In this document: in pieces, positions 9,168 to 10,179 of the stretch
How the letters are laid out: the number at the start of each line of letters is the position of its first letter
How positions within the stretch are numbered: the first letter of the stretch is position 1
From: Octopus sinensis
Lineage: Eukaryota
Direction of reading: 5' to 3'
DNA: 64,000 bases
Assembly: GCF_006345805.1 (NCBI RefSeq)
Contig: NC_043000.1
Coordinates: 96,162,001-96,226,000, forward strand
Position numbers and translations under genes: made by a program
Notes under the pieces: generated by a model
Seen by the model: only the letters and a program-made list of their open reading frames with translations
Databases searched by the model: none
What the model was told of the DNA's origin: nothing

Positions 9168-9927
9168 AAATATAGACAAACAGATACAAGATAACACAGA
9201 ATCACAGAAACTTAAAAGCACAGACATACAGACGAAACACACAGAATTACAGTCAAACAAACACACAGACACATAAATATACAAACACACAGACACACAA
9301 ATACAATCACATGAAAGCCAAGACTTAGAGAAATACAGAGACAAAAAACGCAAACATGCAAGACACAAACAGAAGTAAAGTGTATAGTAAAATATAGGAC
9401 AACCTAAAAGTTAAAAGAATTCCAAAATTGAAAGACATTATGAAAGAGTGAATCTACTGGGGTTGCAGGTGGATATTGAACCTCACACCTCGGTAGTGAA
9501 TTATGTGGATGAAAAGGAGAAGATGAAGTGGTAAGTCATGATTTATTCTAAAGAGTGTGAAAGACTGAGAAAAACATTTGGTTAAAAAAAAAGGAAAAAA
9601 TAAGTAAACCCTGTAACTATTGAATGAACAGTCGTTAAAACGTTTTCTTTAAAATATAGGGTGGACAGGAAAAGAGAAGTCGCGGTTTCACCTCGGAGCA
9701 GGGCTGGAAATTGTTATTCAAAATGTAAGGGTGAAAAAGAAAAAAAAGGAGAGCACAGTTTCATCTCAGAGCGGGAGCAAGATGGCCATCTCATTTGCAT
9801 TGTAATTTAATTCATTTTACATTCATCCTTTCATGTGTTTTTTTGTTCCCGCATGTCTGTGTATGTCCCAGCTGTGTTTAGGCCTTGTACCTGTAGTAAA
9901 GAATTCAGCTAGCAAGCCATGCCACTC

Positions 9928-9966
9928 CAGACTGATGATGAGTAATGACTCTGAAACTAGTCTCTG
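9928..9966 (+). ncRNA. Type I hammerhead ribozyme motif
   Basis: caga-CTGATGA-tGAGT aatg ACTCt-GAAA-ctag-TC-tctg: complete core, stem I caga/tctg, stem II GAGT/ACTC, palindromic minimal stem III (ACTAGT). Stem I extends via agcaagcca/tggctttgct. Confidence 0.8.
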
Positions 9967-10179
9967 TATGCTGGCTTTGCTGGGTGGAGGAACTTATCTC
10001 CCCCTTTGAAAACATAAGGACACAGAAAATGTGTAATGGCCAACTGGAAATGGTGTTTCCTGGGCCTAAATAGCGGTAGCATTCTTCCCCTTTCATGGGA
10101 CTGTCACGTTAAGTTGACAACATACCATCACTTTAAAATGCTGTTACTGTATAAATCTCTCCGAGAAATTTAGAAATGC

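What the first reader, a model, noticed from the sequence alone, without database searches (positions are those of the whole stretch)
9911..9982. Type I hammerhead with extended stem I and palindromic stem III
Seen: core CTGATGA (9932-9938), stem II GAGT/ACTC with loop AATG, GAAA (9953-9956), C-TA-G, and cleavage dinucleotide TC (cut predicted after 9962). Stem I caga/tctg continues past an internal loop into agcaagcca/tggctttgct. The base pair closing stem II is U-U here, which may be a decay mutation from A-U. Known: animal minimal hammerheads with a palindromic stem III (here ACUAGU) often cleave as dimers, and a stem I internal loop contacting loop II boosts activity. Activity of this copy is inference.
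Basis: partly seen in the sequence, partly recalled or inferred. Interest (0 to 1): 0.75.

Follow-up and report, generated by a model that had tools for sequence, protein, structure and literature searches.

The report
Hammerhead ribozyme relic in LINE tail
A real but worn copy of a small self-cutting hammerhead RNA motif lies near the end of a LINE-type jumping gene rather than the Penelope-type elements where such motifs are usually reported, and this copy is likely weak or inactive.

Summary
The motif is in the sequence as described (CUGAUGA 9932-9938, stem II 9940-9943/9948-9951, GAAA 9953-9956, palindrome ACUAGU 9956-9961, predicted cut after C9962). It is not a chance match: it belongs to a dispersed repeat (831 exact-core sites in the 2.72 Gb genome against 6 for a reversed control). 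A covariance model built only from a sister family finds it as the only significant hit in the window (27.4 bits, E 5.8e-6). Across families 12 of 13 helix pairs change on both sides. Rfam gives no hit for this copy; sister copies with a G-C base pair at the foot of stem II reach 25.8-30.3 bits on Hammerhead_1 (threshold 34). The U-U pair is the majority state of this subfamily, not a private decay. The private changes are C9943T (adds a stem II pair) and G9967T (removes a stem I pair). I expected a Penelope-like host and did not find one. In four independent loci and one near-complete element, the hammerhead-plus-tail module directly follows ORF2 (AP endonuclease plus reverse transcriptase) and the 3' UTR of a LINE. 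The window copy is a 5'-truncated, ORF2-less derivative with an inverted tail fragment, lying within a (TA)n tract. Self-cleavage is untested, and folding predictions do not favour it.

The parts
8346..8442 (.). (TA)n microsatellite on the left of the composite insertion
   Evidence: Read directly; repeats listed.
8444..8549 (-). Inverted, 5'-truncated copy of the element's tail (reverse complement of 10028-10133)
   Evidence: Inverted repeat I1: 106 nt, 95% complementary. The same arrangement is seen in L005.
8550..9893 (+). Body of an ORF2-less derivative: broken ORF1 remnant with a CCHC zinc knuckle (8653-8982), a low-complexity ACACAGACA stretch (9112-9344) and spacer
   Evidence: zf-CCHC PF00098, E 6.7e-5. 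The window stretch 8653-8919 matches the ORF1 query with 1 TAG and 1 TAA. This ORF is homologous to ORF1 of the LINE in L166. Long copies align to about 8545-10135.
9894..9910 (+). Start of the shared hammerhead-plus-tail module; the point where LINE-attached, ORF1-only and short copies converge
   Evidence: Copy starts cluster at 9894-9907. In the LINE-attached copies the LINE 3' UTR runs directly into this point.
9911..9919 (+). Distal stem I, 5' strand (pairs with 9971-9980, one bulged T)
9926..9931 (+). Proximal stem I, 5' strand (UCCAGA); pairs with 9963-9968, where this copy has a C9927.U9967 mismatch
   Evidence: family WWWWWW, window WWWWxW.
9932..9938 (+). Core CUGAUGA (C3-A9)
   Evidence: Core plus helix III columns carry 2/476 mismatches in 28 copies chosen by BLAST and 10/289 in 17 copies chosen by the tail.
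9939..9952 (+). Stem II hairpin: U9939.U9952 mismatch at the foot, 4 pairs GAGU/ACUC, loop AAUG
   Evidence: Pair 10.1/11.1 across 76 distinct rows: AU 16, GC 9, UA 8, GU 4, UG 1, unpaired 35.
9953..9956 (+). Core GAAA (G12-A15.1)
9956..9961 (+). Palindrome ACUAGU: stem III of 2 pairs with a 2-nt loop, or a 6-bp intermolecular helix in a dimer
   Evidence: Sister families carry ACUCGAGU and ACAUGCAUGU palindromes.
9962..9963 (+). Predicted cleavage site GUC|U, between C9962 and U9963
   Evidence: Inferred from hammerhead numbering; not tested.
9963..9980 (+). 3' strands of proximal (9963-9968) and distal (9971-9980) stem I
9986..10001 (+). Small hairpin GGAG-N8-CUCC after the hammerhead; sister families have GGGG..CCCC or GGGAAG..CUUCCC here
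   Evidence: read from the sequences.
10002..10184 (+). 3' tail of the element. Most copies align to about 10135; 10136-10184 is an extension homologous to the end of the sister family
   Evidence: Global alignment with the tails of L103 and L110 gives z 15.1 and 12.6 against 200 shuffles.
10185..10236 (.). (TA)n microsatellite on the right of the insertion

Best explanation
This is a worn, solitary copy of a type I hammerhead ribozyme motif carried in the 3'-terminal module of an AP-endonuclease-type LINE retrotransposon family, here in a 5'-truncated, ORF2-less derivative lying within a (TA)n tract. In the element's RNA it would cut after C9962, likely only when two copies pair through the palindrome ACUAGU, and this particular copy is likely weak or inactive. 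Shown: the motif and its family; helix covariation across sister families; the physical continuity ORF1 - ORF2 (AP endonuclease, reverse transcriptase) - 3' UTR - hammerhead - tail - (TA)n; and a 5'-truncation series running through that unit. Inferred: the LINE's own reverse transcriptase primes on the tail/(TA)n end and so copies the hammerhead module along; where the module is tandemly repeated (sister families), hammerhead cleavage releases unit-length RNAs in the way published for animal retrozymes. Untested: any cleavage, by this copy or by the family.
For: The motif is present and beyond chance. The genome holds 831 sites with the exact core plus GAAACUAGUC, against 6 for the reversed pattern, and 275 against 0 for the sister palindrome CUCGAG. 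Model R1, built from 16 CUCGAG-family hammerheads only, hits window 9928-9966 at 27.4 bits, E 5.8e-6, the only hit below E 0.1 in 64 kb. On 76 distinct rows, 86.9% of cells are paired against 72.1% when shuffled. 12 of 13 pairs change on both sides, and the covariation score is 0.382 against 0.163 (0 of 500 shuffles reach it; slid controls <=0.087). Stem I is UCCAGA/UCUGGA in this family and CACACG/CGUGUG in the sister family, with 4 of 6 pairs differing on both sides. Rfam Hammerhead_1 matches six sister copies that have a G-C foot pair, at 25.8-30.3 bits over the full model. Core and helix III columns vary less than the rest: 2/476 against 81/1876, p 2e-6, in BLAST-chosen copies; 10/289 against 82/1071, p 0.012, in tail-chosen copies. 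LINE context: tblastn with a LINE's AP endonuclease and reverse transcriptase finds ORF2 on the same strand directly upstream of the hammerhead in L022, L146, L029 and L020. There the ORF2 end and a conserved 3' UTR of about 210 nt run straight into the module with no (TA)n between. Copies are truncated at 3' UTR positions 1, 5, 8, 70, 121, 159, 161 and 198. L199 holds ORF1 remnant, AP endonuclease, reverse transcriptase, 3' UTR, hammerhead at 7539 and (TA)n at 7885 in order. The window's ORF remnant is homologous to a LINE ORF1. A published hammerhead with a U.U mismatch at the foot of helix II does cleave, best as a dimer (PMC7229834, section read).
Against: Rfam gives no hammerhead hit for this copy. 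It gives none either for four other copies with a mismatched or A-U foot pair: L106, L115, L069 and L086. The foot pair 10.1/11.1, G-C in most natural hammerheads, is U.U here. The window copy has also lost one stem I pair. Predicted folding prefers a slipped stem I (AGACUG with UAGUCU) that buries C3-G5 and the cleavage site: -30.4 against -25.3 kcal/mol for an active-like fold. The predicted homodimer does not use the ACUAGU palindrome, whereas the sister CUCGAG family's dimer MFE is the double hammerhead. No second hammerhead lies in the window. 0 of the 100 listed sites of this family form a same-strand tandem pair. 0 of 35 tail-chosen copies begin at the predicted cleavage product end 9963. 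A cut at this site would separate the coding part from the tail needed for reverse transcription. The core-conservation signal is partly an ascertainment effect: about 10-fold in BLAST-chosen copies, 2-fold in tail-chosen ones. The covariation counts rest on few independent lineages, and alignment A3 was fitted to the model.
Confidence: 0.75

Rival explanations
1. The motif is a hammerhead by descent but catalytically dead in this whole family. It would be kept because the folded module is part of the 3' UTR structure that the LINE reverse transcriptase recognises.
For: 35 of 76 distinct rows lack a standard 10.1/11.1 pair. A slipped helix is predicted for the family's majority form too. There is no Rfam hit. 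0 of 35 copies start at the cleavage site. Cleavage would detach the tail from the coding part.
Against: The catalytic core varies less than the helices and flanks. Helices co-vary between families while core letters stay fixed. A natural U.U hammerhead is active as a dimer (PMC7229834). Sister families occur as tandem arrays whose predicted dimer is the double hammerhead.
Confidence: 0.3
2. The element is a Penelope-like element terminal repeat or a Penelope-dependent non-LTR retrozyme, as published for animal type I hammerheads, and the LINE neighbours are coincidental.
For: The literature places such hammerheads in Penelope-like elements and retrozymes (PMC4209133 read in part; PMC8557442 and 10.64898/2026.07.22.740005 passages). 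The genome holds many RT/GIY-YIG elements: 5029 candidates, 147 scored matches. One full element, L104, has 1.15-kb direct repeats. 5' truncation, an inverted 5' copy, a one-sided extension and (TA)n flanks are also Penelope hallmarks (PMC8557442 passages).
Against: 34 Penelope loci share no similarity with the module except two separate insertions. A Penelope ORF2 query finds nothing in the window or 129 hammerhead-bearing loci, whereas LINE ORF2 is found on the same strand directly upstream in four independent loci. The junction is conserved and lacks (TA)n, with a truncation series. A near-complete LINE ends in the module.
Confidence: 0.1
3. This copy is an active ribozyme that the host uses, for example to process a transcript at this locus.
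For: None specific. One contig of a run guessed to be RNA matches window 9608-9803 exactly, but the run type is a guess.
Against: The copy differs from its family by a lost stem I pair, lies in a 5'-truncated element with broken ORFs, and is one of hundreds of similar copies.
Confidence: 0.04
4. Chance resemblance, or a C/D-box snoRNA-like element (UGAUGA ... CUGA).
For: Weak cmscan matches to four C/D-box snoRNA families at 9.1-16.1 bits, E 1.2-9.
Against: Those scores lie far below the gathering scores (35-54), and the 35-nt span is too short. The hammerhead reading is supported.
Confidence: 0.01

Closest known systems
Canonical metazoan type I hammerheads of non-LTR retrozymes and amphibian satellite repeats (Cervera and de la Pena 2020, PMC7229834)
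   Same: Helix I of 6 pairs followed by an internal loop. A short helix II. A helix III of 1-2 pairs capped by a small palindromic loop, so that dimers are needed. AT-rich repeat units of a few hundred bases. The axolotl HHR_Amex2 even has a U.U mismatch at the foot of helix II. Sister families here form tandem arrays of about 350 bp.
   Different: This family is dispersed, not tandem: 0 of 100 listed sites. Longer copies carry ORF1, or ORF1 plus ORF2. Published retrozymes are described as non-coding and without a recognisable autonomous partner (PMC7761336 passage).
Hammerheads in the terminal repeats of Penelope-like elements (Cervera and de la Pena 2014, PMC4209133; Lunse et al., seen only as a reference in PMC6765202)
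   Same: Type I topology, a palindromic and very short helix III, a retroelement host, dispersed and mostly 5'-truncated copies, head-to-head pairs, and low or dimer-dependent activity.
   Different: No RT/GIY-YIG element carries this module in the loci examined. The host ORF2 has an AP endonuclease (Exo_endo_phos) plus RVT_1 and zf-RVT. Stem II here has a 1x1 mismatch, not the single 5' bulge plus G10.1-C11.1 described for the Penelope min-hammerheads.
Ribozymes of LINE retrotransposons (HDV-like in R2 and other LINEs; twister reported as in preparation for RTE; PMC7761336 and PMC6765202 passages)
   Same: A small self-cleaving ribozyme motif built into an autonomous non-LTR retrotransposon.
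   Different: Those are HDV-like or twister motifs at the 5' end, where they trim upstream co-transcript. Here it is a hammerhead about 250 nt from the 3' end.
Rfam RF00163 Hammerhead_1
   Same: Same core and topology. Six sister copies match the full model at 25.8-30.3 bits.
   Different: This copy gives no match at all, and even the best sister copies stay under the gathering score of 34.
SINE-like Sm-alpha / Sj-alpha elements of schistosomes (named in PMC6765202 passages; details recalled)
   Same: A type I hammerhead inside a short, very abundant, non-autonomous retroposon.
   Different: No tRNA-like or pol III head was seen here. The module is physically joined to a LINE in some copies.

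Membership tests
Hammerhead ribozyme, type I (Rfam RF00163) | Conserved core CUGANGA ... GAAA ... and a cleavage triplet NUH | tested here: met
   CUGAUGA 9932-9938, GAAA 9953-9956, GUC 9960-9962.
Hammerhead ribozyme, type I (Rfam RF00163) | Three helices around the core, with stem I open and stems II and III closed | tested here: met
   Stem I 4+1 pairs plus a distal helix; stem II 4 pairs; stem III 2 pairs within a palindrome.
Hammerhead ribozyme, type I (Rfam RF00163) | Helices supported by compensatory changes among relatives | tested here: met
   12 of 13 pairs change on both sides; covariation score 0.382 against 0.163 shuffled. Caveats: few independent lineages, and the alignment was fitted to the model.
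Hammerhead ribozyme, type I (Rfam RF00163) | Watson-Crick pair at 10.1/11.1 (G-C in most natural hammerheads; PMC4209133) | tested here: not met
   U9939.U9952. The family majority is also U.U. G-C occurs in a sister subfamily.
Hammerhead ribozyme, type I (Rfam RF00163) | Score at or above the Rfam gathering score (34 bits) | tested here: not met
   No hit at gathering score or at E<=10. Sister copies score 25.8-30.3 bits.
Hammerhead ribozyme, type I (Rfam RF00163) | Site-specific self-cleavage | not testable with these tools
   Only assembled contigs of public runs were available, which cannot show RNA ends.
Penelope-like element terminal-repeat hammerhead | Lies in a repeat flanking an RT plus GIY-YIG ORF | tested here: not met
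   No such ORF lies in the element. 34 Penelope loci lack the module. A Penelope ORF2 query finds nothing in 130 sequences that hold the module.
Penelope-like element terminal-repeat hammerhead | Insertion hallmarks: 5' truncation, inverted 5'-truncated copy, one-sided extension, microsatellite target | tested here: inconclusive
   All are present, but LINEs produce the same hallmarks, so they do not discriminate.
Animal non-LTR retrozyme | Head-to-tail tandem repeats of 150-450 bp, each with a type I hammerhead | tested here: not met
   One hammerhead in the window. 0 of 100 listed family sites are in tandem. The feature is met by the sister CUCGAG family, with periods of 348-353 bp in four arrays.
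Animal non-LTR retrozyme | Non-coding unit expressed as a circular RNA | not testable with these tools
   The long form holds an ORF1 remnant. No raw RNA reads were available.
AP-endonuclease-type LINE (non-LTR retrotransposon), 3' module | Module contiguous with ORF2 (AP endonuclease plus reverse transcriptase) on the same strand, at the 3' end | tested here: met
   Met for the family, not for the window copy. L022/L199, L146, L029 and L020 show it. Pfam hits Exo_endo_phos, RVT_1 and zf-RVT are on the related LINE L166.
AP-endonuclease-type LINE (non-LTR retrotransposon), 3' module | Series of 5' truncations with a common 3' end | tested here: met
   Truncation points lie in ORF2, the 3' UTR and the module itself.

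The most novel reading that the evidence does not exclude
In this animal genome the type I hammerhead 'retrozyme' module is the 3' end of AP-endonuclease LINEs, not of Penelope-like elements. At least two LINE lineages carry hammerhead units after ORF2. ORF1-only and non-coding derivatives, and the 350-bp tandem arrays, share the same hammerhead-plus-tail module. This would name a LINE as the long-sought mobiliser of animal retrozymes in at least one lineage, and would be the first hammerhead built into a LINE 3' UTR.
Probability: 0.35. Interest if true: 0.7.

Novelty: new variant of a known kind. Interest (0 to 1): 0.5.

Why it matters
The ribozyme itself is ordinary: animal genomes hold thousands of retroelement-borne type I hammerheads with short palindromic helix III. 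The host element is what stands out. The reviews and papers I could read assign animal hammerheads to Penelope-like elements, Terminons, retrozymes and SINE-like repeats, and assign HDV-like or twister ribozymes to LINEs. They also state that retrozyme repeats show no motif that betrays their autonomous partner (PMC7761336 passage). A 2026 preprint argues for a Penelope origin in vertebrates. Here the hammerhead-plus-tail module is physically continuous with a LINE's ORF2 and 3' UTR and is homologous to the unit of retrozyme-like tandem arrays. That makes the question 'who mobilises animal retrozymes' directly testable in this genome. It also poses a puzzle: a ribozyme placed where cleavage would cut off the tail that reverse transcription needs. 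This may explain the weakened foot pair and the dependence on dimers.

Tried and rejected
Rfam at gathering score over the whole window gave nothing. Rfam by E-value around the site gave only weak snoRNA and lncRNA matches, rejected on score. Public runs: no RNA holder was listed and all runs are kept as contigs. Laying X1, X5, X6 and X2 showed the family in contigs that bridge the cleavage site, but nothing about RNA ends or expression. A second laying, of runs X3, X4 and X2 to compare the orthologous copy in related organisms, did not complete, so cross-species conservation of this locus is open. Penelope link: I scanned 30 GIY-YIG loci and 4 long loci by regular expression, BLAST and model R1. 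Only separate insertions were found (L103, L057) and one weak opposite-strand hit (L034). The hammerhead-like motif in both repeats of the Penelope element L104 got no Rfam support at E<=1 and is unrelated in sequence. MAFFT misplaced the 2-nt gap between palindrome lengths (alignment A1), so A1 was not used for pair counts. Thermodynamic dimer prediction cannot represent two intramolecular stems I plus an intermolecular helix III without crossing pairs, so one search is only indicative. The earlier-findings index holds nothing for this genome. The host organism was not determined. The LINE clade was not determined. Literature: five searches plus passages of two reviews turned up no hammerhead in a LINE 3' UTR. 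Subscription journals, Repbase/Dfam entries and all supplementary files were not seen, so the 'new variant' label may be wrong.
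Full report
OBSERVATION. These are CUGAUGA (9932-9938), a stem II of four pairs GAGU/ACUC with loop AAUG flanked by U9939 and U9952, and GAAA (9953-9956). They continue with C-UA-G inside the palindrome ACUAGU (9956-9961) and the triplet GUC ending at C9962. Stem I has a proximal part caga/ucug and, beyond an internal loop, a distal part agcaagcca/uggcuuugcu. The distal helix is part of the minimum-free-energy fold of 9905-9990 (-30.4 kcal/mol, z -2.47). The pattern CTGATGA-N(4-30)-GAAACTAGTC occurs once in 64 kb, with 0.00 expected.

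RFAM. No family reaches its gathering score anywhere in the window. A permissive scan of 9800-10100 lists no hammerhead at E<=10. It lists only weak C/D-box snoRNA look-alikes, caused by UGAUGA...CUGA, at 9.1-16.1 bits. The rest of the work shows why that check misleads.

A REPEAT FAMILY. The window is G000:C4:96162001-96226000 in a 2.72 Gb assembly. The 131 nt around the motif have 1403 first-look candidates. The 40 scored copies are 86-93% identical, and 30 loci were fetched. In the 32 full-length aligned copies, the motif mostly reads CUGAUGA-U-GAGC-AAUG-ACUC-U-GAAACUAGUC. The U.U 'pair' is thus the subfamily's normal state. The window copy's own changes against the majority of 28 other copies are 9923 T>C, 9943 C>T and 9967 G>T (the same letters appear in laid contigs). 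C9943T turns a C.A at the top of stem II into U-A. G9967T breaks the fifth pair of a 6-pair proximal stem I (UCCAGA/UCUGGA).

SISTER FAMILIES AND COVARIATION. CTGATGA-N(8-20)-GAAACTAGTC has 831 sites in the genome, against 6 for the reversed control. The listed sites show subfamilies whose foot 'pair' is U.U, C.A, A-U or U-A, and unrelated-looking families with other stems II (for example GCUUG/CAAGC). The same search with the palindrome CUCGAG has 275 sites against 0. That family has stems II AGGU/ACCU or GGGU/ACCC and foot pairs G-C, G.U, U.U, C.A or U-A. It has stem I CACACG/CGUGUG followed by an internal loop and AUGAU/AUCAU.

In 76 parsed copies, stem I differs between the two families on both sides at 4 of 6 pairs while staying fully paired. 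I built covariance model R1 from 16 CUCGAG-family sequences only. It finds window 9928-9966 at 27.4 bits, E 5.8e-6, as the only hit below E 0.1 in the window. Over 89 sources it gives 88 hits. On that alignment (76 distinct rows, 13 pairs), 86.9% of cells are paired against 72.1% in shuffles. 12 of 13 pairs change on both sides, and the covariation score is 0.382 against 0.163 (0 of 500 shuffles; slid controls <=0.087).

Three caveats apply. The alignment is fitted to the model. The cells come from few independent lineages. My genome patterns fixed the core letters.

Rfam Hammerhead_1 matches six CUCGAG copies that have a G-C foot pair, over the full model, at 25.8-30.3 bits (gathering 34; E 1.3e-4 to 4e-3 in 4.7 kb). 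One copy of the GCUUG family matches Hammerhead_3 at 26.4 bits. Four copies with a mismatched or A-U foot pair get nothing. The Rfam miss is therefore explained by the foot pair and the tiny helix III.

CORE CONSERVATION. In 28 BLAST-chosen copies, the core and helix III columns carry 2/476 departures from the majority letter, against 81/1876 elsewhere in 9907-9990 (Fisher p 2e-6). That sample was chosen with a query containing the core. I therefore drew a second sample with the tail alone (10003-10135; 3077 candidates). 17 of its 35 rows span the motif and give 10/289 against 82/1071 (p 0.012). The effect is real but modest.

FOLDING. For the window copy, the monomer MFE uses a slipped stem I (AGACUG with UAGUCU) that buries C3-G5 and the cleavage site. 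An active-like fold is 5 kcal/mol worse. The family's majority form and a natural A-U copy behave alike, and their predicted homodimers do not use ACUAGU. The CUCGAG tandem form's homodimer MFE is the classical double hammerhead with an 8-bp intermolecular helix III. This is weak evidence against efficient cleavage in this family.

WHAT THE ELEMENT IS. The copy lies in a composite between two (TA)n tracts (8346-8442 and 10185-10236). The composite consists of:
- an inverted 106-nt copy of the tail (8444-8549 against 10028-10133, 95%);
- a body with a broken CCHC zinc-knuckle ORF;
- the hammerhead, a small hairpin and a tail.
Genomic copies share the 3' end and start at many different points. 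These are hallmarks of Penelope-like elements (PMC8557442 passages), and that was my first reading. The genome has thousands of RT/GIY-YIG matches and at least one complete Penelope element, L104. But 34 Penelope loci share nothing with this module except two unrelated neighbouring insertions.

The ORF led elsewhere. It belongs to a large family (7151 candidates), one member of which is ORF1 of a LINE. In L166, ORF1 with zf-CCHC is followed by ORFs with Exo_endo_phos, RVT_1 and zf-RVT. A tblastn of that LINE's ORF2 against the window and 129 hammerhead-bearing loci finds ORF2 on the same strand directly upstream of the hammerhead at four independent places: L022, L146, L029 (also fetched as L011, L126, L128) and L020 (also fetched as L145). 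A Penelope ORF2 query finds nothing. Aligned, these four show the end of ORF2 and a conserved 3' UTR of about 210 nt running straight into ...AAAAUUCAGCUAGCAAGCC and the hammerhead, with no (TA)n between. Other copies are cut off within that 3' UTR at positions 5, 8, 70, 121, 159, 161 and 198.

The wider locus L199 shows, in order, an ORF1 remnant, AP endonuclease, reverse transcriptase, 3' UTR, hammerhead (7539) and (TA)n (7885). The hammerhead-plus-tail module is thus the 3' end of an AP-endonuclease LINE. The window copy is an ORF2-less, 5'-truncated derivative of it.

A second, younger LINE lineage (ORF2 open frames up to 1131 codons) carries one to three tandem units of about 560 bp, each with a hammerhead-like motif. 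These start 305 nt after the ORF2 stop and end in (TA)n, in 4 of 30 loci. Rfam does not see that motif. The tail of the window's family is homologous to the unit of the CUCGAG tandem arrays (z 15.1 and 12.6 against shuffles).

HOW IT LIKELY WORKS. Shown: the module is copied along with whatever lies upstream of it, from a common 3' end into (TA)n tracts. Inferred: the LINE's reverse transcriptase primes at the tail/(TA)n end. Where modules are tandem, paired hammerheads cut after GUC and release unit-length RNAs with 5'-OH and cyclic-phosphate ends, as published for retrozymes (PMC7229834, sections read). In a single 3' UTR copy, efficient cleavage would cut off the tail. This would fit the weakened foot pair, the competing slipped helix and the need for a partner copy.

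Against frequent cleavage before copying, 0 of 35 tail-chosen copies begin at 9963. The window holds only one hammerhead, so at most a single, partner-dependent cut could occur here. I rate cleavage by this copy as unlikely and by the family as an open question (about 0.4-0.5).

COMPARISON WITH WHAT IS KNOWN. The ribozyme architecture is that of canonical metazoan type I hammerheads (PMC4209133, read in part; PMC7229834). This includes a published active example with a U.U at the foot of helix II. The literature I could read ties animal hammerheads to Penelope-like elements, Terminons, retrozymes and SINE-like repeats. It ties HDV-like or twister ribozymes to the 5' ends of LINEs. It says retrozyme repeats show no motif that reveals their autonomous partner, and a 2026 preprint argues for a Penelope origin in vertebrates. 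Five searches found no report of a hammerhead in a LINE 3' UTR. I saw no supplements, no Repbase or Dfam records and no subscription journals.

VERDICT. The hammerhead reading is right. The 'decay from A-U' idea is not supported. Activity is untested and doubtful for this copy. The host is a LINE-derived element, which is the unexpected part. I score interest at 0.5: an ordinary ribozyme relic, but a context that bears on an open question.

Noticed in passing
L192, L196, L197, L198 (G000 C12:75.19 Mb, C5:48.16 Mb, C1:62.93 Mb, C28:2.89 Mb): A young LINE lineage (ORF2 open frames up to 1131 codons) has one to three tandem units of about 560 bp starting 305 nt after the ORF2 stop and ending in (TA)n. 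Each unit carries an identical hammerhead-like motif with a long stem II, an A.A foot and a near-palindromic helix III. R1 scores it 17.2 bits; Rfam gives no hit.
   Followed up: partly
L110, L111, L112, L107 (G000 C5:69.02 Mb, C7:106.50 Mb, C8:38.20 Mb, C1:95.92 Mb): Tandem arrays with a 348-353 bp period and a CUCGAG-palindrome hammerhead in each unit, arranged like a retrozyme. Copies with a G-C foot pair reach 25.8-30.3 bits on Rfam Hammerhead_1, and the predicted homodimer is the double hammerhead.
   Followed up: partly
L104 (G000:C1:207473000-207482900): A complete Penelope-like element: direct repeats 1-1153 and 5934-7091 (99%), ORF1 of 479 codons, ORF2 of 781 codons with RVT_1 and GIY-YIG, and a hammerhead-like motif at the same place in both repeats. 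It is unrelated in sequence to the window's module, and Rfam gives no hit at E<=1.
   Followed up: partly
L167 (G000:C6:44335500-44345400), reverse strand: An ORF1-only element with an intact 363-codon ORF, a 5' inverted copy of about 730 nt of its own 3' region, and a hammerhead of a third type (stem I CCUGAA/UUCAGG, palindrome CAUGCAUG, triplet GUA). The forward copy has lost A15.1 and the inverted copy has lost U4.
   Followed up: partly
L157 (G000:C1:113685299-113688601), reverse strand: Two minimal hammerhead-like motifs in direct orientation, 1985 nt apart, flank a 377-codon CCHC ORF that holds one TGA.
   Followed up: no
L072, L073, L076 and other sites listed: Further hammerhead families share GAAACUAGUC but have other stems, for example stem II GCUUG/CAAGC with stem I ACUA/UAGU. 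L076 matches Rfam Hammerhead_3 at 26.4 bits (E 0.018).
   Followed up: partly
window 18884-20452 (+): An open frame of 522 codons with RVT_1 (E 2.6e-31) and DUF6451. This is another LINE, only 24% identical to the L166 reverse transcriptase.
   Followed up: partly
window 9608-9803: One 196-nt contig of run X1 (type guessed as RNA) matches this stretch of the element body without any difference. Whether the locus is transcribed cannot be told from contigs.
   Followed up: no
window 61133-61182 (-): A weak match to model R1 (14.0 bits, E 0.11) with a broken core. It is probably chance or a badly decayed copy.
   Followed up: no
window 9928-9934 with 9958-9963: A slipped register of stem I (AGACUG with UAGUCU) is predicted to outcompete the active fold. 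It is possible because the 3' strand reads GUCUCUG, and it is shared by the whole family.
   Followed up: partly
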